From an uncultured Candidatus Saccharibacteria bacterium (GTDB taxonomy: Bacteria; Patescibacteriota; Minisyncoccia; Phycocordibacterales; Zambryskibacteraceae), in the NCBI GenBank assembly GCA_964450705.1, contig CAYVDB010000004.1:1-46414 (forward strand): a stretch of 46,414 nucleotides of DNA, written 5' to 3'. The notes under the pieces are model-generated. The model worked only from the letters and a program-made list of their open reading frames with translations. It searched no databases and was not told the DNA's origin. Below, piece after piece: positions 1-44,046 of this stretch (positions within the stretch are counted from its first letter, which is position 1; each line of letters opens with the position of its first letter). A program made the position numbers and the translations under genes.

Positions 1-617
1 TGAATTCTTAGCTTTAAATCGTTTAAGAATACTTTTTCGAGTCGCTCTCGTTCTCCTTGCTCCTTCGTTTCAGTGATACGGTTATAGTTTTCCAAAGAAA
101 ATTTGGAGTCTATCGGAATAATATAGTCTTTCACTCGCACAATTGCATCAACAATATTTCCATCTCGAAATGGATACTGCATTTCAAAACTTCCCGGTGG
201 TAGTACGTTCTTAAGTAACGTTTCCAAATAATACTCTCCAAGAATCCCGCGCTGCTTTGGATTTTTTAAAATATCTTGAAGAGACTGGAGCTGATCGGCA
301 AAAGAAACCACTTGCTTATTAGTCTCATCAAGTCGAGTAAGGCGTTCAGTAATATCACGAATTATCTTCACTGATTCTGTTGAAGAGTGCCTTAAGGCAT
401 CATTTAGTTGTTTAGAAGACTCAACCATTCGATCATCCACCACGCGAGTCAGATCATTCATATTCCTTACTAATTCATTGAACTGATTCTGGATTAAGAC
501 AAGCCCAGAACTTTCTTCTTCTACTCCCCCGCCACGTTTCATAAGACGCCACAAAATCACAGCGTTTAACGCGAGAATAACAAAAATTATAATCACAAAT
601 AGAGAGGATTCTGCCAC
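1..617 (-). CDS. rmuC: DNA recombination protein RmuC, N-terminal ~205 codons (the rest of the gene lies beyond the window start)
   Basis: Not in the supplied ORF track because it runs off the edge. My reverse-strand translation from GTG 617..615 gives VAESSLFVIIIFVILALNAVILWRLMKRGG..., which is a TM helix. It continues ...QLQSLQDILKNPKQRGILGEYYLETLLKNVLPPGSFEMQYPFRDGNIVDAIV...IPIDSKFSLENY, the conserved RmuC core. An in-frame stop at 678..680 leaves only GTG 617 or ATG 542 as possible starts. Confidence 0.75.
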   Translation of the reverse strand, partial: MAESSLFVIIIFVILALNAVILWRLMKRGGGVEEESSGLVLIQNQFNELVRNMNDLTRVVDDRMVESSKQLNDALRHSSTESVKIIRDITERLTRLDETNKQVVSFADQLQSLQDILKNPKQRGILGEYYLETLLKNVLPPGSFEMQYPFRDGNIVDAIVRVKDYIIPIDSKFSLENYNRITETKEQGERERLEKVFLNDLKLRI

Positions 618-674
618 AGTGAAACTATTATAACACCCCTTGAGAAGAAGCTCGAAACGGCTATACTGAAAGGT

Positions 675-1127
675 ATGTTACATGAAAAAATAAAAGAACA
701 AGTGAAGGAAGCAATGCTTTCCAAAGATTCGGTTCGATTAAATACAGTTCGAGGACTCCTTGCGGCATTCACCAATGAGCTTGTGGCTCAAAAAAGGAAA
801 CCAACGGAGCTATTGTCTGATGAAGAAGTTTTAAAAGTCATCGGGCGAAACGTAAAACAAAGAAAAGACTCTATCGAACAATTCACTGCCGGAGGGAGAG
901 CAGACTTGGTTGAAAGCGAGCAAGCTGAACTTAAGATCCTGGAAACATACTTACCTGAACAAATGAGTGAAGAAGAAATTACTGCGTTTGTAAAAAGTAA
1001 AATCGAAGAAAACCCAAATATTGATAAAACAAAGCTCGGCATGTTTACAGGAGGAATTATGAAAGAACTAAAAGGTCGCGCCGATGGGGCTCTGGTAAAA
1101 AAGATTATAGACTCTCTTCTAGTCTAA
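675..1127 (+). CDS. yqeY: GatB/YqeY domain-containing protein
   Basis: 150 aa. The sequence MLHEKIKEQVKEAMLSKDSVRLNTVRGLLAAF...EAELKILETYLPEQMSEEEI is the typical YqeY layout. Confidence 0.8.
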   Translation: MLHEKIKEQVKEAMLSKDSVRLNTVRGLLAAFTNELVAQKRKPTELLSDEEVLKVIGRNVKQRKDSIEQFTAGGRADLVESEQAELKILETYLPEQMSEEEITAFVKSKIEENPNIDKTKLGMFTGGIMKELKGRADGALVKKIIDSLLV

Positions 1128-1179
1128 ATACCGTTTACACAAAAAGCCCTTAAGTGGGTTTTTTGTTGTCCACAGACAT

Positions 1180-1208
1180 TTGACTTTTCTATTAAAATAT
1201 GATAAGAT
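1180..1208 (+). promoter_or_regulatory. sigma70-like promoter: TTGACT, 17 nt spacer, TAAGAT
   Basis: TTGACT at 1180-1185 and TAAGAT at 1203-1208. It lies upstream of SD AAGGAGG (1243-1249) and the GTG at 1254. Confidence 0.5.
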
Positions 1209-1253
1209 GTAGGCCAGAACGTAGGCTCATTTCCAATCCTTCAAGGAGGCAAT

Positions 1254-1829
1254 GTGGATCTGAATCCCCGAGAAGCCTCACTGAAAGCAGACTTCTCCGC
1301 AAAACTTGCACGCATACGAGAGGCTCGACCTGGCGGAAAAAGCCACCAGGACGACTTCCTGCTTGTGGCACGGGATCTTTTCCCTATCTACGGAGAGTCT
1401 GACGAAGAGCTCCGAGACTTCATGTCTCGAGCAGGACGTATCTTGTCAAAAGGGAAAAAGAGGAAGAAGACTCATTTCCCTAGCGACGAAGAGGTGGAGA
1501 CCATGGCGCAATACGCTTCAGGCCTATATCTCGATGGGGTAAGCTTTGATGATGCTCTCATCAGAGGACTCGAAGAGAGTGGCTTCCGATACGTAAAAGG
1601 AGCCATGGGCAGTGTGGCGCGAAAAATGCGCGCAATTCTTGGTCCATCAAGCAATAAGGCTTCATTGGACACAGGGCAACCGAAAGGTTGCCGCGTTTTT
1701 TTATTTATACAAATCCTTCTTTGCGAGTTTCGTACTTGCGAAGGATTTCCTGCTCAATATCAACTCGATCTCGGCCATAGGTATCGTATGAACGAAGTTT
1801 TATATCTTCGGCATGAATATCATTCTTAG
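1254..1829 (+). CDS. Hypothetical protein in a GC-rich cassette; the 3' end is uncertain because the ORF runs through a terminator hairpin
   Basis: There is a strong SD and a GTG start. The translation looks protein-like as far as ...ARKMRAILGPSSNKASLDTGQPKG. There is no in-frame stop before the hairpin at 1675-1702. The final ~125 nt overlap the convergent ATPase gene. Confidence 0.45.
   Translation: MDLNPREASLKADFSAKLARIREARPGGKSHQDDFLLVARDLFPIYGESDEELRDFMSRAGRILSKGKKRKKTHFPSDEEVETMAQYASGLYLDGVSFDDALIRGLEESGFRYVKGAMGSVARKMRAILGPSSNKASLDTGQPKGCRVFLFIQILLCEFRTCEGFPAQYQLDLGHRYRMNEVLYLRHEYHS
1675..1702 (+). terminator. Rho-independent terminator
   Basis: GGCAACC-GAAA-GGTTGCC (7 bp stem, GNRA loop), then GCG and a run of seven T. 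Confidence 0.7.
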
Positions 1830-4458
1830 CTCCTGGCGGAAGTGTTTCTATATCAAACGGCTTTACTGGTTTGCCATGAACAAGCATCTTTAAGTACGCA
1901 TGCCGGTTCGGAATATTTATTATTTCGCTTGCTGAAAATACTGGCTCAAACTGTTTCGCAAGATACTCCGCATCATCTGTCCCCACGCGAAAACATGCTA
2001 GTGTGCCCACGTTACCAAAGACAGCATTCTTTATATCTTCAGAAAGTTGCCCTATAAACTGATGCGCAATTGAAAGAGAAAGCTTATATTTTCTAGCTTC
2101 TGAAAGAATGGTTGCGATTGATGGAGTGGTAATATTCTGGAACTCATCAATATATAGATAAAACGGTGGGAGATCTTTGCCGAAAGAATCTACTCGAGAA
2201 AGCGCGGCCATAAGAATCTTACCCACAAGAATAAGTCCGATAAGGTTAGCATTTATATCCCCAAGACGGCCTTTAGCGAGATTCACTAAAAGTATCTTTC
2301 GGTTATCCATAATGTCCCGGAAGTTGAAGGAGGATTTTTCCTGAGCAATGATAGGTCGCATAATATCGTTTGCCAAAAATACATCAAACTTTGAAGTGAT
2401 GTACGGAACGATATTTGCTAAAGAAGCTTCTCCGCCGGCTTTCTCTGCAATTTCTCTCCAAAATTGGCTCACAATAGGATTCTTGCATCGAGATAATTTC
2501 ATTAAACGAAATTCTTTATTAGAAAGCACTCGAGAGACGTCAAGAAGCGTCGAGCCAGTATCTGGGTCTTCTATCACAAGCATGGTTGCATTTCGGAAAT
2601 ATTGTTCAAACATTGGCCCCATAGATTCTGGCACAGCACCATAAAGTTTCTGGAAGATATTAAAAAGCTCATTGACCACAAATGTTTTCTGCTCAGGGAG
2701 ATTTTTATCATACTCGAGCATATTTAGCGCCATCGGGCGCTCTACATAGCTCGGGTCAAAATAGATAACATCCTTTACCCTGTCTTTCGGGACCCGAGAA
2801 AGCACATCCACAATATCTGAGCCATGCGGGTCAATCATACATACCCCATTTCCTCTTTCGATATCTTGAATGATCATATTCTTGAGAAGGGTTGATTTCC
2901 CAGTACCCGTTTGCCCGATAGTGTAGAAGTGCCTCAATCGATCTTCATCAGACATAAATACTTCGGTCTTAGCACCTCGATGAGAGTTAAGCCCGAGGAG
3001 TACGCCTTCTTTAGGTAAATCAATTGGAGCTGGGGCTCCGCCTGAAGCAAGAGTCTTTAACTGTGAGACACCTTTTAAAGCAAGAGTATGAAAGTGAATT
3101 AGAGAAGTAAGTTCTGAAAGGTTGAGGGGAATCAGTTCGCTTCTATCAAGAGCTCTAAAGGCAAAGTTTCTGAAGAGTTTTCGGAGCGCACCACCTTTCA
3201 ATCGCTCAAAGCGCAAAGAGTTCCCTTGCGGATTATCAAATTGATTAAATCCTGATTCAATTTCAGACAAAACACTTTCAGATCGATTTTTATCTGGAGT
3301 AGAAACAACAAGTCTTAGGGCTACAGATACAATAGGTTTCCCTATTTTCTGACGAATCTTTTCAATCGGTACCTGGTCGATCGGCTTTCGCTCCTCTTTC
3401 TCGTCTTTCTTTTTGGAAAAGAGTATCCCTCGTAAAGTCTTACTAATCTCTCCAGAAAAAGTAGTTGGGAGATCAATTGCCTCACGGAGAGGCACCCCTT
3501 TTTCTATCTGCGAAAGAGCATACTCAAACCGTTTTGAGTGAGAGTCTCCTGCGGGAGTCATGAGCACTTGAATACACGCCCCTTCTCCATCCTTAGCAAT
3601 CTTAGAAAAACTATTGAGAATCACATTGAGCGGATCGTGATCAAATGCTTCATATGTTTTTATAGGAAAAATGGAATTACCTCGTGAACGCACTACGCTT
3701 CCGAGAGAAACCCCGTGCTCATGAAAAATATTATGATCATCAGCGACCTCTCTGATTTCTGCATCGTGGAAAATCGATAGAATTTGTTTTTCAAAGAGAT
3801 CGCTTTTTGTATTTGGTACTGATACATAAAATACAAATTCTGCGCTTCCATTACTATTCGCAATTTCAAGTACAATATGATTCTCCATTGGGTCATTCTC
3901 TGAAGATACAGATAACATCCCAGAATAAAACTGCTCCATCCCAGAAACAATTTCCTTAAGTGGCCGTTCTGCTTCTCCTTTTTTCTCTGGAAGTACCACT
4001 TCGTAAAGTACCATATGAAGCGCCTTGGAAAGAGGAGCCTTTGGAGGAAGCCCCTTCACGCCAAGACCCTTCTTCACATACTGAACAAGAAAACGATGAA
4101 AATCATCCTCTACGTGCGTATCACCGAGATTTTCAATAACAGAAAGTGTATTTTTTATGCCTTTTGTATTTAAGAGAATAAGTAGCTCTTCTATTTTCTT
4201 ATCATGAGTTTCGGGAGAAAGATTCTCTACAAGAGAGTGTATTGTATCCGTTTTTAACGAAAGATTGCTGTCGAGCACATGTTCGGAAGGGAGTTCTCTG
4301 TATGTAGAGAGGCTCTCACGAATCAGATCATCGTGAGATATCTCCGCTCCACGCTCTTGAAGATTTGTTCCTTTTTCAGCAACTCGTTCCTGAAAAAATT
4401 TTTTCTCTTCTTCAGTGGTTTTAAATTTATTTTCGGGAATAAACGAACGTAGTTCCAT
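1705..4458 (-). CDS. TraD/VirD4/HerA-like P-loop ATPase (type IV secretion DNA-binding-domain family) with a large uncharacterised N-terminal half
   Basis: 917 aa. Walker A is GQTGTGKSTLLKNM and Walker B is FYLYIDEFQNI, followed by ARKYKLSLSIAHQFIGQL. The first ~480 aa have no motif I recognise, and there is no N-terminal TM segment. Confidence 0.7.
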   Translation of the reverse strand: MELRSFIPENKFKTTEEEKKFFQERVAEKGTNLQERGAEISHDDLIRESLSTYRELPSEHVLDSNLSLKTDTIHSLVENLSPETHDKKIEELLILLNTKGIKNTLSVIENLGDTHVEDDFHRFLVQYVKKGLGVKGLPPKAPLSKALHMVLYEVVLPEKKGEAERPLKEIVSGMEQFYSGMLSVSSENDPMENHIVLEIANSNGSAEFVFYVSVPNTKSDLFEKQILSIFHDAEIREVADDHNIFHEHGVSLGSVVRSRGNSIFPIKTYEAFDHDPLNVILNSFSKIAKDGEGACIQVLMTPAGDSHSKRFEYALSQIEKGVPLREAIDLPTTFSGEISKTLRGILFSKKKDEKEERKPIDQVPIEKIRQKIGKPIVSVALRLVVSTPDKNRSESVLSEIESGFNQFDNPQGNSLRFERLKGGALRKLFRNFAFRALDRSELIPLNLSELTSLIHFHTLALKGVSQLKTLASGGAPAPIDLPKEGVLLGLNSHRGAKTEVFMSDEDRLRHFYTIGQTGTGKSTLLKNMIIQDIERGNGVCMIDPHGSDIVDVLSRVPKDRVKDVIYFDPSYVERPMALNMLEYDKNLPEQKTFVVNELFNIFQKLYGAVPESMGPMFEQYFRNATMLVIEDPDTGSTLLDVSRVLSNKEFRLMKLSRCKNPIVSQFWREIAEKAGGEASLANIVPYITSKFDVFLANDIMRPIIAQEKSSFNFRDIMDNRKILLVNLAKGRLGDINANLIGLILVGKILMAALSRVDSFGKDLPPFYLYIDEFQNITTPSIATILSEARKYKLSLSIAHQFIGQLSEDIKNAVFGNVGTLACFRVGTDDAEYLAKQFEPVFSASEIINIPNRHAYLKMLVHGKPVKPFDIETLPPGAKNDIHAEDIKLRSYDTYGRDRVDIEQEILRKYETRKEGFV

Positions 4459-4592
4459 ATACTATTTAATACAGTATACCATCTAAAATAAAACCCAGAC
4501 CTAAAACACGATTCCTTCAATAGGCCAACCTAGAAAGATTAAGCCGCGAAGAATGCCCGTAGACTTAAACTATTGCCACGGTTCAAAAATAC

Positions 4593-4620
4593 TTGCTTTT
4601 TCTAGTAAATATGTTATAAT
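4593..4620 (+). promoter_or_regulatory. sigma70-like promoter: TTGCTT, 16 nt spacer, TATAAT
   Basis: TTGCTT at 4593-4598 and TATAAT at 4615-4620. The predicted transcription start falls downstream of the ATG at 4623, which favours the ATG at 4653 as the start. Confidence 0.55.
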
Positions 4621-4652
4621 GTATGAAGACAACCTTCATAGGAGATCTTTAT

Positions 4653-5063
4653 ATGGGAACAGAAAAGAAGCCGAGCAAGAGTCTCGGATACGTGATCCTC
4701 ATCGGCGTCTTGCTTCTGCTTGCCTTGAGCCTTGCAGGGTGCGACAGGTTCGAGGAGAGAGACTTCAGGGTCGTGGTAAACAACATCAATAGCCCTGACC
4801 CAGTAACAGCATACGCTGCCGGGCAGGAGCTTGGCTCTGTTGTTCTGGGAGTCCCTCAGAGCTTCACCATATCCCTTCCAGTGCCAAACACTGTGGGGAC
4901 TGGGCCGGAAGAGACTCGGCAGTGCTTCCCTGTTTCGGGAAGCGTTCTCAAGAAGAACCTCTCTTCACGTAGCAACCCTGTTTGTTCGCGCGAGAACCAG
5001 ATCGTTACGGTCGATTTCGAAATCGACCGTGGAGTTCTGGATATCAGAACGCGAGTGCAGTAA
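4653..5063 (+). CDS. Putative lipoprotein (GC-rich cassette)
   Basis: SD AGGAG at 4640-4644. The N-terminus MGTEKKPSKSLGYVILIGVLLLLALSLAGC carries a signal peptide and an L-A-G-C lipobox. Confidence 0.7.
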   Translation: MGTEKKPSKSLGYVILIGVLLLLALSLAGCDRFEERDFRVVVNNINSPDPVTAYAAGQELGSVVLGVPQSFTISLPVPNTVGTGPEETRQCFPVSGSVLKKNLSSRSNPVCSRENQIVTVDFEIDRGVLDIRTRVQ

Positions 5064-5091
5064 CACCACCCTTCGGGGTGGTGTATTTTTT
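5063..5091. terminator. Hairpin terminator between convergent genes
   Basis: ACACCACCC-TTCG-GGGTGGTGT followed by a T run. It sits between the lipoprotein stop and the ogt stop. Confidence 0.75.
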
Positions 5092-5353
5092 ATAAAGAAA
5101 CACCCTCTTTTATTAGTAACTCCCTTTTACTTGGCCCGTTTATTTGATTATATTCTCCAATCTTTCCATCTGAACGAATTACTCTGTGACACGGAACCCT
5201 AGGATCTGTATTTTTTGAAAGTGCGGTTCCGACTGCACGAAATGCACTCGGTTTCCCTATCGCCCAGGCAACTTCTTTGTAAGTGCGGGTCTCTCCTTTT
5301 GGTATCTTTTTAACTATCGAGTAGACTTTCTCAGCAAATGTTTCTTTTTTCAT
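5090..5353 (-). CDS. ogt: Methylated-DNA--protein-cysteine methyltransferase (MGMT/Ogt), DNA-binding/active-site domain only
   Basis: The sequence is ...TYKEVAWAIGKPSAFRAVGTALSKNTDPRVPCHRVIRSDGKIGEY, containing the PCHRV active-site motif. I chose the start at the internal MKKETF. Confidence 0.85.
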   Translation of the reverse strand: MKKETFAEKVYSIVKKIPKGETRTYKEVAWAIGKPSAFRAVGTALSKNTDPRVPCHRVIRSDGKIGEYNQINGPSKRELLIKEGVSL

Positions 5354-5428
5354 AATTAAATACAAGTATATCAAAACCCTCAAAGGACAAGCCTAAGAGG
5401 GTTTTGATATCTAATTACTATGAAGAGA

Positions 5429-6157
5429 TTACTTCACTCGAACTACTACGCCAGTTGTAGCGTCGATATCTACCCGTCGATCGCCGTCAAAGCGTACTGC
5501 CCACACAACTTTTCCTTCTTCCATATCAAGCTGTATCTTGATTACAACCTTTCCGGGAAGAGCAATGAGCGCAAGTTCTTTTGCCTTCTCTGCACTTATT
5601 GTAGGAACGAAAGTCGATGGCACATCACTATCTCTTTCAAGAACTTTCTCTATCTTCTTTTCAGTCTTATCTTCTATTTTTTGGATGCGAACCTCGCCGT
5701 TATTTGACCAGTTGCGAACAACGGTTGCATCCACTGTGAGAGTCTTGTCAGGATCAATTTGGCCTCGTGCGCCAACATAGTCTCCTACCTTCCATCCTGT
5801 AAGTGATCTGTTATTACCCGCAATTTCCGTATCTTGATAAATGTTTACTGTCCATGATCCGCCCCAGCTTTTTACCATGATCTTACCAGTAGTAGACCCG
5901 GTTGTGGTAGAGATTGATTCAATCTTTCCGCGAATCAAAGCCTTTCCTTTTGGCCCAACCTCAAGAATAATAGGCTGGTACTCTCCTCTACGAACCATTT
6001 CCCCTTCAATCTTTTCAATCCTTTTCTTTGCGGTCTCCTCTATCTTTTGAATAAAGTTCTTATTCTTGTTTTCACTTCCTGTTTCAGCAAATGCAGCAGT
6101 TGAAGTAAGTGCAAATGCCACAACAAGAAAGAAAGCACTAATCTTTTTCAAATTCAT
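5429..6157 (-). CDS. Secreted PepSY domain-containing protein
   Basis: Signal peptide MNLKKISAFFLVVAFALTSTAAFA. The C-terminal region ISAEKAKELALIALPGKVVIKIQLDMEEGKVVWAVRF...DATTG resembles a PepSY domain. Confidence 0.65.
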   Translation of the reverse strand: MNLKKISAFFLVVAFALTSTAAFAETGSENKNKNFIQKIEETAKKRIEKIEGEMVRRGEYQPIILEVGPKGKALIRGKIESISTTTGSTTGKIMVKSWGGSWTVNIYQDTEIAGNNRSLTGWKVGDYVGARGQIDPDKTLTVDATVVRNWSNNGEVRIQKIEDKTEKKIEKVLERDSDVPSTFVPTISAEKAKELALIALPGKVVIKIQLDMEEGKVVWAVRFDGDRRVDIDATTGVVVRVK

Positions 6158-6240
6158 ACGTTTTTATAAGTTAATAACCAGATCAATTATACACTGATCT
6201 GTCGCTTATTGGAGACGTACCATAAGAACTCTTCTTACAT

Positions 6241-6266
6241 AAAAAAAGACCCTCTCAAGGAGGGTC
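6241..6266 (-). terminator. Rho-independent terminator
   Basis: On the minus strand: GACCCTC-CTTGA-GAGGGTC followed by seven T, immediately after the stop at 6267. Confidence 0.75.
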
Positions 6267-6590
6267 CTAACGGCGGGCAAGAGATTTCTTGATCTTCTCC
6301 GCTTTCTTCCGAACACAATCAATCCTCTTACGCTTGTCCTCATCAAACGGAACGAGACGTGGAGGATTATCCCCCAAAGACGACCAGAGATTGAAGCTAA
6401 GCCCAGCCGTACGAGATTGAACAAAGAAGTCCTTCTCTCGTTCGGTACACTGCCACACAAAAAAGGGCTCCTTCCTTCTATATCCCCTGATTTCTCGGGG
6501 AGACTCCTCGGCATCAAGTTCGCGAGAAAACACCCCATTCGTGTGAGCATTGAGTGGCTCAAGAAACCACAGCCTTTTGCCATGTCCCAT
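6267..6590 (-). CDS. Hypothetical protein (GC-rich cassette)
   Basis: This 107-aa ORF ends exactly at a strong terminator. The competing 6206..6667 frame reads through that terminator. Confidence 0.5.
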   Translation of the reverse strand: MGHGKRLWFLEPLNAHTNGVFSRELDAEESPREIRGYRRKEPFFVWQCTEREKDFFVQSRTAGLSFNLWSSLGDNPPRLVPFDEDKRKRIDCVRKKAEKIKKSLARR

Positions 6591-6672
6591 GTGTTCCCCC
6601 TTGAAAATATGAACTCTCTTTGTTTTTTATAATACAAAGAAGTATTGTTGTCAAAAACAAAAACCAAGCCCC

Positions 6673-7134
6673 CTAAAATTGAGCGATTACTAACTTTCTC
6701 ATACCCATCATCTTCTTAAATGCGCCAGGCTTTTTGATAAGCCCTTCCCAGTCTTCTGGCACAACCTGCCAACTCAAACCGTATTTATCTTTCAGCCACC
6801 CACATACGCTTTCTTGTCCGCCATTTGTGGTTAAAGCATTCCAATAGTAATCAATCTCTTCTTGATCTTTACAGCTAATCGAAAATGAAACAGCTTCATT
6901 AAACTTAAATTCTGGCCCCGCATTAATAGCAATAAAGTGCATTCCGAGTATTTCAAACTCGATCGTCAAAACTTCTCCCGCCAAGTGCTTCTGAAAATCC
7001 GCAAGTCCCTCAGCCTCACTTTTTGGGTAATACATCGTTGAAATAATCTTTCCATCTGGAAAAACACTCAGATAAAAATCTACTGCCTCTTTTGCATTAC
7101 GATCAAACCACAAATTGGGAATTACTTTTTGCAT
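6673..7134 (-). CDS. VOC (glyoxalase/bleomycin-resistance fold) family protein, PhnB / 3-demethylubiquinone-9 3-methyltransferase-domain type
   Basis: MQKVIPNLWFDRNAKEAVDFYLSVFPDGKI...LTIEFEILGMHFIAINAGPEFKFNEAVSFSI.C.DQEEIDYYW..L...GGQESVCGWLKDKYGLSWQVVP is the characteristic pattern of this family. Confidence 0.75.
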   Translation of the reverse strand: MQKVIPNLWFDRNAKEAVDFYLSVFPDGKIISTMYYPKSEAEGLADFQKHLAGEVLTIEFEILGMHFIAINAGPEFKFNEAVSFSISCKDQEEIDYYWNALTTNGGQESVCGWLKDKYGLSWQVVPEDWEGLIKKPGAFKKMMGMRKLVIAQF

Positions 7135-7166
7135 ATTATCTATTCTATTATAGATAAATCAGGCCA

Positions 7167-7195
7167 TTGACAACAATCTATATAAAACTTACATT
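7167..7195 (+). promoter_or_regulatory. sigma70-like promoter: TTGACA, 17 nt spacer, TACATT
   Basis: TTGACA at 7167-7172 and TACATT at 7190-7195, about 60 nt upstream of the small peptide gene. Confidence 0.5.
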
Positions 7196-7258
7196 TTAAA
7201 TGGTTGCAAAGATGTTCTTTGCTAAACCAAACACAATCCTCAAAACAGGAGGCTCGCC

Positions 7259-7387
7259 ATGAAGAACCCGAAAAAGTTCTCTTGGAAAGCCACCTCAAAG
7301 GAAAAGCCTATTTCTGGCACGATCGTGTGTCAGGAACAGTGCAGCTCCGGCGGTGGTGGCAACGGCAAGTGCGGCACCGGTAAGTAA
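7259..7387 (+). CDS. Candidate RiPP (TOMM / linear azole-containing peptide) precursor, 42 aa: MKNPKKFSWKATSKEKPISGTIVCQEQCSSGGGGNGKCGTGK
   Basis: Too short for the ORF track; I translated it by hand. SD AGGAGG lies at 7247-7252, 6 nt before the ATG. The gene has its own promoter and a 12-bp-stem terminator. The leader is Lys-rich and the C-terminal core is rich in Cys, Ser, Thr and Gly. It lies next to a YcaO/SagB enzyme gene. Confidence 0.65.
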   Translation: MKNPKKFSWKATSKEKPISGTIVCQEQCSSGGGGNGKCGTGK

Positions 7388-7406
7388 CCGAGATCGCCTA
7401 GCCCTC

Positions 7407-7440
7407 ATGAGTACAACACTTCCAAAGTTGTTGTACTCAT
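7407..7440. terminator. Bidirectional hairpin terminator between convergent genes
   Basis: Perfect 12-bp stem: ATGAGTACAACA (7407-7418) pairs with TGTTGTACTCAT (7429-7440), with a 10-nt loop and T-rich sequence downstream. Confidence 0.75.
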
Positions 7441-7442
7441 TT

Positions 7443-8252
7443 CTATTTTAATGCCTCCGTGAACCTATTAGATCCAATCTTCATCAACTCATCCCAGGAT
7501 AAATTCTTATTGTTATCCCTAAACTCTTTCACCAGCCAGTATCCAGCGGAATATCCTGTCCACTTTTGATACATTTCATTACCGAATAGAAATTCTTTTA
7601 TAAGATTCCTATCTTTAGATTGCAAAATATCTTTTGACTCCTTTAGGAGCTTAAGTGCTTCAGTTTTAGTGAGGGATCCAGCCCACTTACTTACTTTAGT
7701 ATCAAAATACTGTTCCCTGAAATTCTCTGCGAGGCCCTCCAATAATATCTCATCCAGGAGCGTATAATTATTGAAATTATCGTAGTGATGATAATAGAAG
7801 ATAGTGTGATTTAATTCATGGGCCACAGTATTTTCAATAGATTTATTTGAATATTCATCTAGGTTTATAAATAAATGGAAAACACAGCTGTAAACCGCCA
7901 CAGCCATTACCCCTTCAAAAACTTTATCTTCTTCAGTGGTGAGATATGGATGAACAAAAATAAAATTCTTTGTAGGAACAGTTAATTTTTCATTACACTT
8001 CCGAATAGTCTCCAATATAATCTCCCCAATCTCTAATTTTTGACCTTCAGATATTTCTTTATATTTACCAGGGTCACCTTCTCCAATATGATCCAATAGA
8101 CCTTGTTTTAATAAATTAATATCAGCATAGCCAGAATAATCGACACTTCCTTTCTCTTTCATTAGAGAAATAATAGCGTCAACCATATCACTCCTATCTT
8201 TGAATTCCTCGCTTGGAAAATAAAATTCAATCTGCGATAAATCCTTATTCAT
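7443..8252 (-). CDS. Putative Zn-dependent peptidase (HExxH; DUF2268-like)
   Basis: 269 aa. It contains ...ENTVAHELNHTIFYYHHY... (HELNH) and has DUF2268-like length and layout. No signal peptide is present. Confidence 0.5.
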   Translation of the reverse strand: MNKDLSQIEFYFPSEEFKDRSDMVDAIISLMKEKGSVDYSGYADINLLKQGLLDHIGEGDPGKYKEISEGQKLEIGEIILETIRKCNEKLTVPTKNFIFVHPYLTTEEDKVFEGVMAVAVYSCVFHLFINLDEYSNKSIENTVAHELNHTIFYYHHYDNFNNYTLLDEILLEGLAENFREQYFDTKVSKWAGSLTKTEALKLLKESKDILQSKDRNLIKEFLFGNEMYQKWTGYSAGYWLVKEFRDNNKNLSWDELMKIGSNRFTEALK

Positions 8253-8265
8253 CAGATCATACTAG

Positions 8266-8307
8266 CAAAATAAAAAAGAGGCAGAAAGCTAAAAGCCTTC
8301 TGCCTCT
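8266..8307 (-). terminator. Rho-independent terminator between the YcaO fusion gene and the peptidase gene
   Basis: On the minus strand: AGAGGCAGAA, an 11-nt loop, TTCTGCCTCT, then TTTTTTATTTT. Confidence 0.7.
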
Positions 8308-8311
8308 CGAG

Positions 8312-10492
8312 CTACTCAAAAGGATGAGGAAACCTAGTTAACTGCCCATACATCAGTCTGCCTCGCCCAAACCTCTCAGCAACCTCATAGAGGCGACTCA
8401 TTCCAGCTGGTTCTTGCCGATAACCAAACGTCATCTGAGCAGTTCCCGGCACGATCGCCCTAATGATACTCAGCCCGCGATTTCCTCCATACTCATCCGA
8501 GAGTTCGAGTGGAACAACTAAATGTTTCCAGTTCTTACTCTCGAAACAAGCCAGAAGATCATCCCAAGTCCGAGAGGTTTCAGATCCGACTTTTTGGAAC
8601 GGGACAACCCTCCGACTTGCAACCAGGAAATCTGCACGACGGAAGTACCGTTCTTGACCATAGAGACGACCGTGATCATTCGGCCAAACAACATCCTCAG
8701 GCAGAATCTTCCTCGGCACACCATTCTGCAAGCGATGGAGAATCGAAGCCTCCACCTCTGTGAGTGCATGACTAACAGCGTACTCGATGTTAAAGCTAGA
8801 ACAAGATGCGCAAGTGGTAAAGGTGTGCTCTGTGCTTTGAGCCATCACAAATACCACGGGCGCGAGATCGAGTGAATGGTCAACGATCCACACCTTAAAC
8901 CCAATATTCTGTAGCTTGCGAATCCTCTTTTGAATGATCTCTGGCAGAGACCTTTCAGACACCGTAGGCATATCGAGTTTACAGAAATACGAGTTGATAA
9001 ATGCATCTCGCTCAACCAACTCAAGGGTTCCAGTCTCAATTGACACTTGCTTATCAGGATGAGCCGCGCATCCAGACGAGTTTGAAAAACAGTAGTAAGG
9101 TGTTTCTGGGAAGTATGGAAAATAGACATGATCAGCGAGAACATAAGATTCATTGCCTCTCAAGTCATAACCCCTTGCCCAGGCATACCTCATCTGCTCA
9201 TCAAACGGCGCGAATGGAAAATCCTTTACCCTATACTGATCCTTATGGAATTGGACGACCTTTCGGGGGTCTACAACATTATCCAATTCACGATAGGCAG
9301 CATAGGTCAGTTTGGGTATACACCCACAAGACGCCCACTCTCTAGCTTCTGAGATAGCTTTTTTCATAGCCATCTCAGGAGAAGGATCTCTGCCGTGCGA
9401 CCAGCTTCGTTTATCTGACAAGCGAGCTGATGCAATAGCGAAATCAGGCACATAACCTTTTGCCATTGGGATTGCCCAATCCACTTGTATACGTGAGGAT
9501 TCTTGTGGATTTACTTGCTGGCCCTCTTTACCAAAGACAATGAGAGTGAGTGGGCGATACTCATCCGGAAGCTCTATGGCGTTAGCCACGAGCTCATCCA
9601 CAAATCCTCCAATTTCTAGAGTAGCAATCCCTTGTCGAGTCGCTTCCAAAAGAATGTTTTGAGCAGAGTGCCCAGCTTCTAATGGAACATAGAGCATGCT
9701 TCGATTACCGTATTTCTGATTCGCGAGAGAAAATGAACCACTAATGACGATTGCGCCATGTGCCCCTTTCTCGATGCCTGCAGGATTCAAGAAAGCTCTC
9801 GCAAATCTCAAGACATCTGCCGAGATCAAGCTAAAGCCTACGGAACCTGCTTGACTGTAAATTGCTTGGTATATCCCAGGATTCAAGTCGCCCGTCTTTG
9901 CAAACAGGACGATGTGAATTTTGAGAGGATACAACGCACCGGCGGATGGTACAGACCGATGTAGTCGCCCATCAGTGGTCTGATATTCTCCATACGCACT
10001 CCAAAGCAAATCAACAACAGCTTGAAAATCCACAGTCTCTCCAGAGAAAACGCGAACAGACTTACGTCGACTTATAATTTCAGAAAGACTATTTCCTGAA
10101 GGTTTATAAGCCCGTTCTAAGACATCTTGATGGTGTCTTTCGAACGACTGAGAGACCATTAATGCCACCTCACTGTCGCTGACAATTCTTGGGAAACGCA
10201 TTGGATTCGTGACAGTTTCCCAAAATCTACCCTCGAGAGTTTTTCCATCAACAATTACTTGTTTTTGAAATAACTCTTCGATAAGACCCTCGATTGAAGT
10301 TCGTTCCCAGTCTTGAGAAAGAACATCGATCACCTCACCCAACTTCCTGCTTCCATTACAGAGATCAAGAAGCTGAGCAATAACGGCTCGGGGGACTTCA
10401 ACAACCACTTCCTTGTCGAGAGTGTTAAAGACTGTCCTATTGCCTGTAGTAAAGGCCGAAGCCCACACAATAGGAATGCTCGTAAGGTCCAT
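8312..10492 (-). CDS. Three-domain fusion: RRE-like (PqqD-type) domain, SagB-type FMN dehydrogenase and YcaO cyclodehydratase
   Basis: aa ~17-83 read AVIAQLLDLCNGSRKLGEVIDVLSQDW...IEELFQKQVIVDG, a PqqD/RRE-like pattern. aa ~135-322 contain ISRRKSVRVF, PSAGALYP, QKYGNRSMLYVPLEAGH (the Lys-Tyr motif) and LTLIVFG. aa ~345-726 contain KKAISEAREW, FSNSSGCAAH and LELVERDAF, and the protein ends in FPHPFE. Confidence 0.85.
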   Translation of the reverse strand: MDLTSIPIVWASAFTTGNRTVFNTLDKEVVVEVPRAVIAQLLDLCNGSRKLGEVIDVLSQDWERTSIEGLIEELFQKQVIVDGKTLEGRFWETVTNPMRFPRIVSDSEVALMVSQSFERHHQDVLERAYKPSGNSLSEIISRRKSVRVFSGETVDFQAVVDLLWSAYGEYQTTDGRLHRSVPSAGALYPLKIHIVLFAKTGDLNPGIYQAIYSQAGSVGFSLISADVLRFARAFLNPAGIEKGAHGAIVISGSFSLANQKYGNRSMLYVPLEAGHSAQNILLEATRQGIATLEIGGFVDELVANAIELPDEYRPLTLIVFGKEGQQVNPQESSRIQVDWAIPMAKGYVPDFAIASARLSDKRSWSHGRDPSPEMAMKKAISEAREWASCGCIPKLTYAAYRELDNVVDPRKVVQFHKDQYRVKDFPFAPFDEQMRYAWARGYDLRGNESYVLADHVYFPYFPETPYYCFSNSSGCAAHPDKQVSIETGTLELVERDAFINSYFCKLDMPTVSERSLPEIIQKRIRKLQNIGFKVWIVDHSLDLAPVVFVMAQSTEHTFTTCASCSSFNIEYAVSHALTEVEASILHRLQNGVPRKILPEDVVWPNDHGRLYGQERYFRRADFLVASRRVVPFQKVGSETSRTWDDLLACFESKNWKHLVVPLELSDEYGGNRGLSIIRAIVPGTAQMTFGYRQEPAGMSRLYEVAERFGRGRLMYGQLTRFPHPFE

Positions 10493-10730
10493 GATTTATC
10501 CTTTTGTTTGTGTTGTCTAAGGACTGGCTATCTGACTTGACACTATATAGCATATATTACTTTGTCAATTAATTTGTATCTCTATAAATACAAGACCAGG
10601 AGCGCTGTTACGCACAGTTTTTATGTGGTCACAAGTTACTAAGTATTTTGAAGCTAATCGCACAAAATACGTAAGTACTTGCCGACCCCGTCTCGACCGT
10701 TTCTTTACTAAGAAACATATCTACGACTTC

Positions 10731-10763
10731 ACAAAAAGCACAAAATCCCACGCAGGTGGGATT
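10731..10763 (-). terminator. Rho-independent terminator downstream of tRNA-Glu
   Basis: On the minus strand: AATCCCAC-CTGC-GTGGGATT followed by TTGTGCTTTTTG. Confidence 0.65.
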
Positions 10764-10777
10764 GTTGTGTCTTTTTG

Positions 10778-10849
10778 TGACCCTACGGGGAATCGAACCC
10801 CGATTTAAGCCTTGAGAAGGCTTCGTCCTAACCGTTAGACGATAGGGCC
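10778..10849 (-). tRNA. tRNA-Glu (anticodon CUC)
   Basis: 72 nt, hand-folded. The acceptor stem is GGCCCTA/TAGGGTC (one G-U pair). The D arm is GTCT...AGGAC, the anticodon arm is AAGCC-TTCTCAA-GGCTT and the T arm is CGGGG-TTCGATT-CCCCG. CCA is not encoded. Confidence 0.9.
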
Positions 10850-11003
10850 AATAATATTTACTAATCTACATCAGGTTCGATTCGATGGGAATCTTTCCTT
10901 TATGCCTCCTAACTTTGCCACCCGCCTCGCGTCGATGAGCTTTGCGAGTCAAGGCTGGTTGAGAAAAAAGAATACAAGAAATAACGGTTTTTATCAAGAA
11001 AAA

Positions 11004-11297
11004 CTAAATCTTTATCTTGAGTACTTTGTATATTGTAATCACTGCGTAAGGGACTATTACAAAAAATAGATATTCCTCTAGAGGCAAAATGCCTATGTAT
11101 ATCCCCAAGAGTTTCTCTCGGCTAAAAAACCAATGCCCAGACCATACCGCATAGGTATCCCACACAACTCCGATAACAAAGAAAATCAGCGGGATAATAA
11201 TTCTCTCTTTTCTTGAAGAAAAAAGATGAATACGAAACTTCGTCTCGAGAAAGAATGTGACAAGAAGAAGAGCGAGAAGAATAGAAAGGTACGACAT
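11004..11297 (-). CDS. Lycopene cyclase domain-containing small membrane protein
   Basis: 97 aa with 3 TM helices. The motif W..F......LG..IG.LPLEEYLFFVIVP resembles the CrtYc/Yd-type lycopene cyclase domain. Confidence 0.45.
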   Translation of the reverse strand: MSYLSILLALLLVTFFLETKFRIHLFSSRKERIIIPLIFFVIGVVWDTYAVWSGHWFFSREKLLGIYIGILPLEEYLFFVIVPYAVITIYKVLKIKI

Positions 11298-22541: not shown

Positions 22542-23323
22542 TTTATATTTAGGATTTCAACCCATCGAAGAGTAAAAATATTTAGAGGAGTGATAAGCCG
22601 AATGTGTTTAAAAGAATCTTTTTCAGATTCTTCAACAGAACCGACTCTTGCAAGAGCAAATGCCGGGTCTCCAGGGAGAACAACTAAAGCGCCAGGAGCA
22701 ATAGGAAAATCTCTTGGAACACGAACAGAAAAATTCCCTGCCCCGTGTCCACGCAGTATAAGCGGTTCACCTCCTGGAAGTAATCGTCCTTCAGTTTCTT
22801 TATTAGAACTAGAATATAAATCAACCTTCATAAAACCTTCCCCCGCTTCAGAAACTATTCCAAGTGCAGTTGTTCCTGAAACAACTTTTGAACCCACTTC
22901 TCTTGGGGCGCCGTCAATAACAAAAGTATCGTAAGGAGTCTGAGATGGATGGACCAAAACTGCGTGCGTAGAAAAAACAAATTGAGAAGACAGCGCTAGT
23001 GCTTCCCTAAAAGATGCGTTATCAGCCCGAAGAATTTCTAATTCATTCATTCGGTTACGTAAGTCATTATTTTCTTCGGTAAGTTTATTATTTTCTTCCA
23101 CAATAGAAGCTTTTGTTGAAAATAGGTTTTTATTAAACACAGCCTGAGCAACAAATTCACGTGTTTTCCAAAATGGTTTTGCAATAGAAATAGTTGTACT
23201 TCCAAATACGCTAGGAAACAGAGCTTCTACTGAAGCAACAAGAACAACCATAAATAGCAGGCCCCAAAAAACCTTTCCTAAAATGTTCTTACGTTTTGGT
23301 TTAGTTTGTAGATAAAAGTTCAT
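22538..23323 (-). CDS. mreC: Rod shape-determining protein MreC
   Basis: TM helix, a coiled coil (NKLTEENNDLRNRMNELEILRADN) and a beta-rich C-terminal region. I chose the start at MNFYLQ (23323), which overlaps the mreB end by 23 nt. Confidence 0.75.
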   Translation of the reverse strand: MNFYLQTKPKRKNILGKVFWGLLFMVVLVASVEALFPSVFGSTTISIAKPFWKTREFVAQAVFNKNLFSTKASIVEENNKLTEENNDLRNRMNELEILRADNASFREALALSSQFVFSTHAVLVHPSQTPYDTFVIDGAPREVGSKVVSGTTALGIVSEAGEGFMKVDLYSSSNKETEGRLLPGGEPLILRGHGAGNFSVRVPRDFPIAPGALVVLPGDPAFALARVGSVEESEKDSFKHIRLITPLNIFTLRWVEILNIK

Positions 23324-35341: not shown

Positions 35342-35417
35342 TCCGCGATAGCTCAGTTGGTAGAGCGGCGAGCTGTTAACTCGTTGGTCGCAGGTTCGAA
35401 TCCTGCTCGCGGAGCCA
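35342..35417 (+). tRNA. tRNA-Asn (anticodon GUU), CCA encoded
   Basis: Hand-folded. The acceptor stem is TCCGCGA/TCGCGGA, the D arm is GCTC-AGTTGGTA-GAGC, the anticodon arm is GCGAG-CTGTTAA-CTCGT and the T arm is GCAGG-TTCGAAT-CCTGC. It ends in GCCA. Confidence 0.92.
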
Positions 35418-36900: not shown

Positions 36901-36904
36901 TTAA

Positions 36905-39553: not shown

Positions 39554-39559
39554 AAGTCT

Positions 39560-41461: not shown

Positions 41462-41462
41462 A

Positions 41463-41636
41463 TTATCTTGTTTTCACCTTATTTAGGAACCTTCCAAATT
41501 CTTCCCTATCAATCCTAAACTCCTTCCCAATCTTATATGCCTTCAGTTTCTTGGCTTTGATATATCGGTAAACGGTCATGATGTTTACCTGTAGCTTGTC
41601 AGCCAACTCTCTAGCTGTATAGAAATCTTTGTTCAT
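41463..41636 (-). CDS. Excisionase-family helix-turn-helix DNA-binding protein (HTH_17-like)
   Basis: YTARELADKLQVNIMTVYRYIKAKKLKAYKIGKEFRIDREEFGRFL. The stop abuts the mod start. Confidence 0.7.
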   Translation of the reverse strand: MNKDFYTARELADKLQVNIMTVYRYIKAKKLKAYKIGKEFRIDREEFGRFLNKVKTR

Positions 41637-44002: not shown

Positions 44003-44046
44003 TTTTATATTCTTTACTTTACTTCACAGAGGCTTACACTTCAATT

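What the first reader, a model, noticed from the sequence alone, without database searches (positions are those of the whole stretch)
8312..10492. All-in-one azole synthetase: RRE-SagB-YcaO in one polypeptide, with no E1-like/Ocin-ThiF partner gene nearby
Canonical TOMM systems split these functions across three proteins: B (dehydrogenase), C (E1-like, RRE-bearing) and D (YcaO). The characterised fusions I know of are C-D fusions such as PatD/TruD. Here the order is a PqqD-like RRE (aa ~17-83), then the dehydrogenase with its Lys-Tyr motif (QKYG, aa 259-262), then YcaO.

The YcaO part has the ATP/Mg Glu motifs (SEAREW, ELVERD). It ends in FPHPFE, close to the C-terminal PxPxP motif described for azoline-forming YcaOs.

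I see no separate C/F protein in the window. I do not recognise this architecture as characterised, but I cannot query databases.
Basis: partly seen in the sequence, partly recalled or inferred. Interest (0 to 1): 0.75.

Follow-up and report, generated by a model that had tools for sequence, protein, structure and literature searches.

The report
Single-protein thiazole-peptide synthetase cassette
A candidate-phyla (Patescibacteria) genome carries a three-gene cassette in which one 726-residue protein joins a peptide-docking domain, an FMN dehydrogenase and a YcaO cyclodehydratase, next to a small Cys-rich peptide it probably converts into a thiazole peptide; this enzyme layout is widespread in sequence databases but I found no study of it.

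Summary
The ORF is on the minus strand (8312..10492, 726 aa). It reads RRE (aa ~7-82), SagB-type nitroreductase (aa ~135-325) and YcaO (aa ~340-726). Pfam, AlphaFold2 (pLDDT 91.8) and Foldseek agree on this.

The Lys-Tyr motif, the two ExxE ATP/Mg motifs and the C-terminal FPHPF are invariant or nearly so across 100 homologues. No E1-like, Ocin-ThiF or TfuA gene is in the 46 kb window or in any conserved neighbourhood.

New here:
- A cognate 42-aa precursor gene lies at 7259..7387 (+): MKNPKKFSWKATSKEKPISGTIVCQEQCSSGGGGNGKCGTGK.
- A conserved HExxH DUF2268 protein lies at 7443..8252 (-).
- A peptide with the leader motif xFSW(K/S/T)(V/I)(T/S) sits next to the fusion gene in about 20 of 23 distinct loci, from Patescibacteria to Proteobacteria.

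The fusion is common: 337 clusters at 50% identity score E<=1e-30, and most of the best 150 are full-length. I found no paper describing it.

Best reading: a self-contained linear azole-peptide (LAP/TOMM) synthetase that works without the usual E1-like partner. This is a new variant of a known kind. Its activity is inferred, not shown.

The parts
8312..10492 (-). RRE-SagB-YcaO fusion gene (726 aa plus stop)
   Evidence: ORF. Pfam PF00881 and PF02624. AF2 model pLDDT 91.8, pTM 0.86. Foldseek matches to LynD, TruD, MusD, BmdC, ThcOx, McbC and McbD.
10247..10492 (-). RRE (PqqD-like winged-helix peptide-binding domain), aa 1-82
   Evidence: Predicted four strands plus three helices. Foldseek of the domain model hits RRE domains. 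Weak PqqD / PaaA_N / LanB_N Pfam hits in family members. The LC(D/N)G motif has C45 and G47 conserved.
10091..10246 (-). Helical connector, aa 83-134, with conserved W91, N96, P97, F100
   Evidence: Helices 83-94 and 106-120. Conserved columns. The BmdC oxidase profile match spans aa 63-319, so this segment probably belongs to the SagB-type fold.
9518..10090 (-). SagB-type FMN dehydrogenase (nitroreductase fold), aa 135-325, with R143/S145/R147 and K260-Y261
   Evidence: PF00881. TIGR03605 64.8 bits. K260/Y261 align to McbC K201/Y202. Invariant residues.
8315..9487 (-). YcaO cyclodehydratase domain, aa 336-726, with E382/E385, E491/E494/R495/D496 and C-terminal FPHPFE
   Evidence: PF02624. TIGR03604 aligned over model positions 10-376 of 377. 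Alignments to MusD, TruD, LynD and MJ1094. Conservation.
7443..8252 (-). DUF2268 HExxH protein (269 aa), candidate leader peptidase
   Evidence: PF10026, E 8e-28. Invariant H145-E146-x-x-H149 and E172-G173 in 12 orthologues. Found next to the fusion gene in every Patescibacteria-type locus whose contig extends past that gene: immediately downstream on the same strand in most, opposite strand in L017 and L024.
7259..7387 (+). Precursor peptide gene (42 aa): MKNPKKFSWKATSKEKPISGTIVCQEQCSSGGGGNGKCGTGK
   Evidence: Conserved small ORF convergent with DUF2268 in 11 of 11 distinct loci. An HMM of the family finds it next to the fusion in about 20 of 23 loci. AGGAGG lies 7 nt before the ATG. Substitutions between orthologues are mostly synonymous.
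7167..7195 (+). Promoter-like site upstream of the precursor gene (TTGACA, 17 nt, TACATT)
   Evidence: Consensus scan, 10 of 12 matches. This is a consensus match only.
7407..7440 (.). Inverted repeat between the convergent precursor and DUF2268 genes; likely bidirectional terminator
   Evidence: Read from the sequence. RNA fold of 7388-7455 gives -18 kcal/mol (z -4.9) on + and -19 kcal/mol (z -3.3) on -.
8276..8308 (-). 15-bp hairpin plus T-run between the fusion gene and DUF2268
   Evidence: Terminator scan. -24.5 kcal/mol, z -4.8. Conserved with changes on both sides of the stem in 7 loci.

Best explanation
This is a minimal three-gene pathway for a linear azole-containing peptide (LAP/TOMM type). 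One polypeptide appears to do what three proteins normally do.

Inferred mechanism:
1. The N-terminal RRE binds the conserved leader segment PKKFSWK(V/I)T of the 42-aa precursor as an added beta-strand.
2. This tethers the core VCQEQCSSGGGGNGKCGTGK to the enzyme.
3. The C-terminal YcaO domain uses ATP to cyclodehydrate Cys24, Cys28 and Cys38, and possibly Ser29/Ser30 and Thr40, to azolines.
4. The central SagB-type FMN domain oxidises the azolines to azoles using its Lys-Tyr motif.
5. The neighbouring cytoplasmic HExxH protein (DUF2268) most likely removes the leader.

No E1-like or Ocin-ThiF partner is needed. Leader recognition is supplied by the fused RRE, and the dehydrogenase domain sits where cyanobactin heterocyclases carry the E1-like domain.

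Shown here: the domain architecture, motif conservation, predicted folds, co-occurrence of the genes, and absence of a partner gene nearby.

Inferred only: leader binding, the chemistry, which residues are modified, the protease role, and self-sufficiency.
For: Architecture and folds.

Catalytic residues:
- Conserved in 100 homologues.
- Aligned to McbC K201/Y202.
- Aligned to the (M/L)E(L/I)VERD motif and C-terminus of TruD, LynD and MusD.

Family assignment: the best NCBIfam models are the azole-forming SagD and SagB families in 20 of 20 members. The thioamidation model scores far lower, and no C-protein or Ocin-ThiF model is hit.

Substrate:
- A precursor with a conserved leader motif and a Cys/Ser/Gly core lies next to the enzyme in about 20 of 23 distinct loci. 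Enzyme identity across these falls to about 26-35%.
- It has its own Shine-Dalgarno sequence and a terminator-like hairpin.

Gene neighbourhood: in Patescibacteria the only other conserved neighbour is DUF2268, with an invariant HExxH...EG.

No partner: no ThiF/E1, Ocin-ThiF or TfuA among the window ORFs scanned.
Against: - No biochemical data exist for any member.
- Both NCBIfam domain scores fall below the curated cutoffs: 138 against 219 for SagD, and 64.8 against 78.4 for SagB. The family is therefore divergent.
- The C-terminus is PxPx(E/A), not a full PxPxP.
- RREs fused to azoline dehydrogenases have been described as possibly vestigial (PMC7470986).
- Only 46 kb of this genome is visible, so a partner encoded elsewhere is not excluded.
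- The cassette has no exporter or immunity gene.
- The core is more conserved than the enzymes. That is unusual for an antibiotic LAP and leaves the product's role open.
- HExxH proteins in RiPP clusters can be alpha-ketoglutarate/Fe oxygenases rather than proteases (PMC12636437).
Confidence: 0.6

Rival explanations
1. The fusion is a genuine azole synthetase but is not self-sufficient. An E1-like or Ocin-ThiF activator encoded elsewhere in the genome is still needed to potentiate the YcaO domain.
For: All characterised azoline-forming YcaOs outside bottromycin use such a partner (PMC4603692; PMC10634744). Only 46 kb of the genome is visible.
Against: - No such gene is in the window.
- None is in any of about 20 neighbourhoods. 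Only the precursor plus DUF2268 or an ATP-grasp protein are conserved.
- The RRE function a partner would supply is already fused.
- Patescibacterial genomes are generally very small (my background knowledge, not tested here).
Confidence: 0.12
2. The domains carry out chemistry other than azole formation. The YcaO could form a thioamide or amidine, or perform ATP-dependent peptide cleavage as MusD does. The nitroreductase domain could do a different oxidation, such as dehydro-amino-acid formation.
For: - MusD (7u58) is among the best sequence and structure matches.
- Nitroreductase domains in RiPP clusters can do non-azole chemistry (PMC12636437).
- Scores are below the curated SagD and SagB cutoffs.
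- The C-terminus lacks the third Pro.
Against: - The Lys-Tyr motif, which aligns with McbC K201/Y202, is invariant. From memory, this motif is required in azoline dehydrogenases.
- The core has conserved Cys residues in Gly/Ser-rich surroundings like microcin B17 (the comparison is from memory).
- No TfuA or sulfur-delivery gene is nearby.
- The SagD model is matched end to end and far better than the thioamidation model.
Confidence: 0.13
3. The N-terminal RRE is a vestigial fold. The peptide is recognised directly by the YcaO or dehydrogenase active sites, as proposed for other dehydrogenase-fused RREs.
For: The RRE-Finder authors flagged dehydrogenase-fused RREs as possibly inactive. Pfam PqqD hits are weak. 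Foldseek E-values for the domain are only about 3e-3.
Against: - It is the only RRE in the cassette.
- The domain is conserved (F22 and G47 invariant in 100 sequences; P34, C45 and W62 at >=90% there and invariant in the 31-sequence N-terminal set) with pLDDT around 90.
- A short leader motif, FSWxV(T/S), stays conserved across phyla while the cores diverge. That is the expected signature of RRE recognition.
Confidence: 0.1
4. The small ORF is not the substrate. The enzyme modifies a protein or a peptide encoded elsewhere, as E. coli YcaO modifies ribosomal protein uL16.
For: Some YcaOs act on proteins (PMC13063428). [quoted passage not shown]
Against: - The small ORF co-occurs with the enzyme in about 20 of 23 loci, in changing orientations and flanks.
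- Its substitutions are mostly synonymous and it has a strong RBS.
- It has a leader-plus-Cys-core layout.
- The JGI name is a generic transfer from E. coli YcaO.
Confidence: 0.04

Closest known systems
Cyanobactin heterocyclases LynD / TruD / PatD (RRE-E1-like-YcaO, 'C-D fusion')
   Same: They have an N-terminal RRE and a C-terminal azoline-forming YcaO in one chain. They are the best structural and sequence matches for both ends. The (M/L)ELVERD motif and the Pro-rich C-terminus align.
   Different: The middle domain here is an FMN nitroreductase/SagB dehydrogenase, not the E1-like domain. Oxidation is therefore built in, and the E1-like activator is missing.
Microcin B17 synthetase McbBCD (separate E1-like/RRE, dehydrogenase, YcaO; B4C2D2 octamer)
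   Same: It has the same three functions and a Gly/Ser/Cys-rich core. McbC and McbD are structural matches. The McbC Lys-Tyr motif aligns. McbB's RRE matches the N-terminal domain.
   Different: McbBCD is three proteins with an E1-like scaffold. Here there is one chain, fixed 1:1:1 stoichiometry and no E1-like fold.
ThcOx (CyaGox) and PatG-type azoline oxidases; sulfomycin SulF (RRE/Ocin-ThiF-dehydrogenase fusions)
   Same: An RRE-like domain is fused N-terminal to a SagB-type FMN oxidase. ThcOx matches both the RRE and the oxidase part.
   Different: These lack a YcaO domain and work with a separate heterocyclase. Their RREs have been described as possibly vestigial.
Micrococcin TclI/TclJ/TclN (one RRE scaffold presenting the peptide alternately to cyclodehydratase and dehydrogenase)
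   Same: One RRE serves both the YcaO and the dehydrogenase (PMC10634744).
   Different: In Tcl the interactions are transient and between separate proteins, and TclJ still carries an E1-like domain. Here the three parts are covalently linked.
Partner-independent YcaOs of bottromycin biosynthesis
   Same: These YcaOs act without an E1-like or Ocin-ThiF protein (PMC4603692).
   Different: They have no RRE and no fused dehydrogenase, and they recognise a follower peptide.

Membership tests
YcaO superfamily, azoline-forming (TOMM D-protein) type | YcaO domain above the Pfam gathering score | tested here: met
   PF02624, 134 bits against a 25.7 cutoff, aa 367-684.
YcaO superfamily, azoline-forming (TOMM D-protein) type | Conserved acidic ATP/Mg2+ motifs (two ExxE pairs) | tested here: met
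   E382, E385, E491 and E494 are invariant in 100 sequences. ELVERD aligns with MusD, TruD, LynD and MJ1094.
YcaO superfamily, azoline-forming (TOMM D-protein) type | C-terminal PxPxP motif | tested here: inconclusive
   The family C-terminus is F-P-H-P-F-(E/A): the first two Pro are present and the third is absent. It aligns with the TruD C-terminus PTPMP.
YcaO superfamily, azoline-forming (TOMM D-protein) type | Score above the curated cutoff of NCBIfam TIGR03604 (SagD family) | tested here: not met
   138 bits against a 219.25 cutoff, although aligned over model positions 10-376 of 377. It is the best model in 20 of 20 members.
YcaO superfamily, azoline-forming (TOMM D-protein) type | E1-like (C) or Ocin-ThiF (F) partner, fused or encoded nearby | tested here: not met
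   No such domain is in the protein, among the scanned window ORFs or in conserved neighbourhoods.
YcaO superfamily, azoline-forming (TOMM D-protein) type | ATP-dependent cyclodehydration of Cys/Ser/Thr | not testable with these tools
   Needs an enzyme assay and mass spectrometry.
SagB-type azoline dehydrogenase (TOMM B protein) | Nitroreductase fold with an FMN-phosphate-binding RxSxR | tested here: met
   PF00881, 57.7 bits against a 23.5 cutoff. R143, S145 and R147 are invariant. Structural matches to BmdC, McbC and ThcOx. The role of RxSxR is from my knowledge of the nitroreductase family.
SagB-type azoline dehydrogenase (TOMM B protein) | Lys-Tyr catalytic motif | tested here: met
   K260 and Y261 are invariant and align with McbC K201/Y202.
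SagB-type azoline dehydrogenase (TOMM B protein) | Score above the curated cutoff of NCBIfam TIGR03605 | tested here: not met
   64.8 bits against a 78.4 cutoff.
RiPP recognition element (PqqD-like RRE) | Three-stranded sheet followed by three helices (winged helix-turn-helix) | tested here: met
   AF2 predicts strands 12-16, 19-23 and 28-32 (plus 7-9) and helices 35-44, 51-58 and 64-76, with pLDDT about 90. Foldseek hits are RRE domains. The structure is predicted, not solved.
RiPP recognition element (PqqD-like RRE) | Significant match to Pfam PqqD PF05402 | tested here: not met
   No hit for the window protein. Weak hits in 14 of 31 family members, best E 0.0024.
RiPP recognition element (PqqD-like RRE) | Binds the leader of a cognate precursor | not testable with these tools
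   Indirect support only: the leader motif FSWxV(T/S) is co-conserved with the enzyme.
Linear azol(in)e-containing peptide (LAP) gene cluster | Precursor with a leader and a Cys/Ser/Thr-rich core next to YcaO and a dehydrogenase | tested here: met
   The 42-aa ORF at 7259..7387 has core residues Cys24, Cys28, Cys38, Ser29, Ser30 and Thr40.
Linear azol(in)e-containing peptide (LAP) gene cluster | Leader peptidase | tested here: inconclusive
   DUF2268 has an invariant HExxH...EG and zincin-like weak hits. It has no characterised relative, no PDB relative and no NCBIfam model. Protease or oxygenase is not resolved.
Linear azol(in)e-containing peptide (LAP) gene cluster | Export or immunity genes in the cluster | tested here: not met
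   None is in the conserved patescibacterial cassette. Some proteobacterial relatives do carry ABC/HlyD/TolC genes.

The most novel reading that the evidence does not exclude
The fused SagB domain and RRE replace the E1-like or Ocin-ThiF partner entirely. This would be the first partner-independent, single-polypeptide azole synthetase.

Its product would be a small thiazole peptide whose core is more conserved than its enzymes and which has no dedicated exporter. In genome-reduced Patescibacteria it might therefore serve a physiological role, such as metal binding, signalling or host interaction, rather than act as a variable antibiotic.
Probability: 0.3. Interest if true: 0.75.

Novelty: new variant of a known kind. 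Interest (0 to 1): 0.6.

Why it matters
In characterised systems, azole formation in ribosomal peptides needs a YcaO enzyme plus an E1-like or Ocin-ThiF partner that binds the leader and activates the YcaO (PMC4603692, PMC10634744). A natural, widespread enzyme that lacks that partner and fuses RRE, dehydrogenase and YcaO gives a direct test of whether the E1-like domain is dispensable.

It would also give a compact tool for installing thiazoles in designed peptides: two genes, or three with the peptidase. The recognition tag would be a short leader motif, FSWKVT.

It also points to a conserved modified peptide in Patescibacteria. These organisms have very small genomes and little known secondary metabolism (my background knowledge). 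Homologous cassettes in Proteobacteria, including the sequenced strain Cupriavidus sp. H19C3, offer an experimental entry point.

Tried and rejected
1. I looked for the precursor in the 510-bp gap upstream of the fusion gene (10493..11003). It holds only unconserved small ORFs and a tRNA-Glu gene. The precursor turned out to lie beyond DUF2268 on the other strand.

2. I searched 1..11100 for an att-like direct repeat of the tRNA end, to test an integrated island. Only short chance repeats appeared.

3. A sequence profile of the N-terminal domain against PDB gave no meaningful hit. Only the structural search was informative.

4. DUF2268 as a single sequence and as a profile against PDB gave nothing. 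NCBIfam gave nothing, so it matches none of NCBIfam's curated models. From memory, the alpha-KG HExxH hydroxylase family (IPR026337, named) has such a model, which would argue against membership.

5. I considered copper-related function, because one relative (L001) sits beside CsoR-like, DUF305, DUF411 and P-type ATPase genes. Other loci have unrelated flanks, so I treat this as coincidence.

6. Literature searches for DUF2268 with YcaO, for hyphenated fusion names and for Patescibacteria with YcaO found no description. The Chem Rev YcaO review and the Burkhart 2015 RRE paper are not held, so absence from the literature is not proven.

Full report
**Observation**

The stated coordinates contain a single long ORF, but on the minus strand: 8312..10492, ATG start, 726 aa, ending FPHPFE. 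Pfam places a Nitroreductase domain at aa 140-322 and a YcaO domain at aa 367-684, both well above gathering scores.

NCBIfam's best models are the azole-forming SagD family (TIGR03604, 138 bits, aligned over 10-376 of 377 positions) and the SagB dehydrogenase domain (TIGR03605, 64.8 bits). Both fall below the curated cutoffs, so this is a divergent branch.

**Family and conservation**

A word-indexed search returned 311 relatives. The best 120 are nearly all 720-750 aa proteins with the same PF00881+PF02624 architecture at 47-76% identity (a few shorter fragments aside). They come from metagenomes, and the few that are named are 'YcaO-like family protein' from Candidatus Paceibacterota.

An exhaustive HMMER scan of 1.84 billion cluster representatives found 337 proteins at E<=1e-30. 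Most of the best 150 are about 700-770 aa and align in one stretch across aa ~7-725, with identity down to 26%.

In species-representative genomes the full-length fusion occurs in these groups:
- Patescibacteria (Paceibacterota, 'Saccharibacteria'-labelled MAGs, Magasanikiibacteriota, Ca. Oleincola).
- A Bdellovibrionales MAG.
- Alpha- and Betaproteobacteria at 26-39% identity (Reyranella, an Alphaproteobacteria MAG, Cupriavidus sp. H19C3, Comamonadaceae, Burkholderiaceae).

In a 100-sequence alignment these residues are invariant: R143/S145/R147, K260/Y261, E382/E385 and E491/E494/R495/D496. F721-P722-H723-P724-F725 are at least 90% conserved.

HMMER alignments to solved structures place K260/Y261 on McbC K201/Y202. 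They place ELVERD on the (M/L)E(L/I)VERD of MusD, TruD, LynD and MJ1094, and the C-terminus on the Pro-rich C-terminus of TruD.

**The N-terminal domain**

AlphaFold2 on the 100-sequence alignment gave a confident model: pLDDT 91.8, pTM 0.86, and only aa 328-332 below 50. It starts with strands 7-9, 12-16, 19-23 and 28-32, then helices 35-44, 51-58 and 64-76. A separate model of aa 1-130 gave the same topology.

Foldseek of that domain against PDB returned almost only RRE domains of RiPP enzymes. These were LynD, TruD, ThcOx, the isolated PbtF RRE (TMt 0.72, rmsd 2.4 A), McbB, TbiB1, CteB and MccB, though with modest E-values from 3e-3.

At sequence level PqqD is the commonest weak Pfam match, in 14 of 31 members. 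PaaA-like_N and the LanB N-terminus also appear. I take the RRE assignment as supported by prediction.

The full model matches LynD/TruD/MusD (E about 1e-20), BmdC, archaeal and E. coli YcaOs, ThcOx, McbC and McbD. There is no room for, and no signal of, an E1-like domain. The segment aa 83-134 belongs to the extended SagB-type fold, since the BmdC match spans aa 63-319.

**What surrounds it**

Across relatives whose flanks are otherwise unrelated, one neighbour is constant in Patescibacteria: a roughly 270-aa DUF2268 protein immediately downstream on the same strand. In the window it is at 7443..8252 (-). Twelve orthologues share an invariant H145-E146-x-x-H149 and E172-G173. Weak hits point to zincin-like families. 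It has no characterised relative.

Clustering all small ORFs around the pair revealed a conserved peptide gene just beyond DUF2268 and convergent with it. In the window it is 7259..7387 (+), encoding MKNPKKFSWKATSKEKPISGTIVCQEQCSSGGGGNGKCGTGK.

The gene has these features:
- AGGAGG 7 nt upstream of the ATG.
- A TTGACA/TACATT promoter-like site.
- A strong hairpin between it and the end of DUF2268.
- Mostly synonymous differences between orthologues.

An HMM of these peptides finds a member beside the fusion gene in about 20 of 23 distinct loci. In the proteobacterial, Bdellovibrionales and Magasanikiibacteriota loci it lies directly downstream on the same strand.

The shared element is a leader motif (K/R)xFSW(K/S/T)(V/I)(T/S). 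The cores differ but always carry Cys in Gly/Ser-rich surroundings: GCCK, GCGGCGCK, ECGACG, GCSCCGGK.

In Proteobacteria the DUF2268 gene is replaced by a YheC/D- or TTL-like ATP-grasp gene. HlyC-like, HlyD, ABC and TolC genes often accompany it.

Within Patescibacteria the precursor is usually more conserved than the enzymes. For example it is 62-71% identical where the enzyme is 47-56% identical, and the C-terminal 20 residues are identical at 55% enzyme identity.

**Absence of a partner**

I scanned the window ORFs of roughly 110 aa or more against Pfam, and those without a Pfam hit against NCBIfam. They are housekeeping genes (MraZ, RsmH, PBPs, MurF, LysRS, GreA, MreB/C, M50 protease, RRF, PriA, Def, Fmt, HPF), two serine recombinases, a type III restriction-modification system and a VirD4-like ATPase.

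No ThiF/E1-like, Ocin-ThiF or TfuA protein was found. No C-protein or Ocin-ThiF model is hit by any of 20 family members.

**Interpretation**

The most economical reading is a self-contained LAP/TOMM synthetase:
- The RRE holds the FSWKVT leader.
- The YcaO forms azolines at the core Cys residues, and perhaps Ser or Thr.
- The SagB domain oxidises them to azoles.
- DUF2268 probably trims the leader.

The covalent link fixes RRE:dehydrogenase:YcaO at 1:1:1. It puts the dehydrogenase where cyanobactin heterocyclases carry their E1-like domain. These steps are inferred; nothing about activity is shown.

The main rivals are:
- A partner encoded elsewhere is still required.
- The chemistry is not azole formation. 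MusD-like cleavage is one precedent, and the C-terminus lacks the third Pro.
- The RRE is vestigial.
- The real substrate is something else.

**Comparison with known systems**

Reviews and surveys I could read list several architectures: separate B, C and D proteins; C-D fusions; F-protein-dependent systems; RRE/Ocin-ThiF-dehydrogenase fusions; and oxidase-protease fusions. None lists a dehydrogenase-YcaO fusion (PMC4603692; PMC10634744; PMC7470986). Targeted text searches found none either.

Two key papers were not available, so prior description cannot be fully excluded.

The thing works like McbBCD, or like LynD plus ThcOx. As a family member it fails the 'E1-like/Ocin-ThiF partner' feature of azoline-forming YcaO systems and falls below the curated SagD and SagB cutoffs. 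I therefore file it as a new variant of a known kind.

**Verdict**

It is extended here by the precursor, the conserved HExxH partner and the leader motif, and by showing the architecture is common but apparently unstudied. Interest is moderate to high for RiPP enzymology.

Noticed in passing
window 10777-10849 (-); L011 113-197; L018 4567-4640: A tRNA gene lies about 230-360 bp upstream of the fusion gene in the window (tRNA-Glu CTC) and in two of the closest relatives (tRNA-Leu, tRNA-Ile). The tRNAs differ while the position is the same, which hints that the cassette inserts next to tRNA genes. No att-like repeat was found in the window.
   Followed up: partly
window 8276-8308 (-): A 15-bp GC-rich hairpin followed by a T-run sits in the 59-nt gap between the fusion gene and DUF2268. 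It is conserved in 7 loci, with changes on both sides of the stem that keep the pairing. It may terminate or attenuate transcription between the two genes.
   Followed up: partly
window 35342-46000: tRNA-Asn (35342-35417, +) overlaps the end of a large serine recombinase gene (35353-36900, -). Next come a type III restriction-modification pair (36905-41461), two unknown ORFs and a second serine recombinase (44338-45987). GC drops to 0.33-0.35. This looks like an integrated mobile element.
   Followed up: no
window 1705-4458 (-): A 917-aa VirD4/TraD-like type IV coupling ATPase lies a few kb from the cassette. The stretch from about 1.7 to 10.8 kb may be accessory DNA inserted after the dcw genes (MraZ-RsmH-PBP-MurF).
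   Followed up: no
window 11004-11297 (-): A 97-aa lycopene-cyclase-domain membrane protein (TIGR03462, above cutoff) sits alone, immediately downstream of murF (separated from the cassette by the tRNA-Glu gene). No other carotenoid genes are in the window.
   Followed up: no
L026 1690-7205 (Cupriavidus sp. H19C3, chromosome 2): Two paralogous RRE-SagB-YcaO fusion genes (750 and 755 aa) flank an ATP-grasp-like gene. A 2OG-Fe(II) oxygenase gene follows. No FSW-type precursor was detected there.
   Followed up: partly
L019, L022, L025, L027 (Proteobacteria): In proteobacterial relatives the conserved partner is a YheC/D- or TTL-like ATP-grasp protein instead of DUF2268. In L027 the locus also carries HlyC-like acyltransferase, HlyD, ABC and TolC genes (L019 has the ABC gene; L023 and L028, which lack a recognisable full-length ATP-grasp gene, carry HlyD and, in L028, ABC and TolC). 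This suggests a differently tailored, exported product made from the same leader/enzyme pair.
   Followed up: partly
L001 3534-7658: In one close relative the cassette lies directly after a copper-resistance block (CsoR-like repressor, DUF305, DUF411, P-type ATPase). Other loci lack this, so it is probably coincidence, but it is worth remembering for a three-Cys peptide.
   Followed up: no
P0184, P0200, P0220 (representative library): Some family members are about 950 aa and carry an extra N-terminal region of about 230 residues before the RRE. Its nature is unknown.
   Followed up: no
window 10190-10222 (-), aa 91-100 of the fusion: A conserved W-x4-N-P-x2-F motif (W91, N96, P97, F100) lies in the connector between the RRE and the dehydrogenase. 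This part of the model has the lowest confidence apart from the short aa 328-332 linker (pLDDT 66-81). Its role is unknown.
   Followed up: no
window 23301-24368 (-) and 28962-29975 (-); 12597-14312 (-) and 20572-22275 (-): There are two MreB paralogues and two class B penicillin-binding proteins within 20 kb.
   Followed up: no
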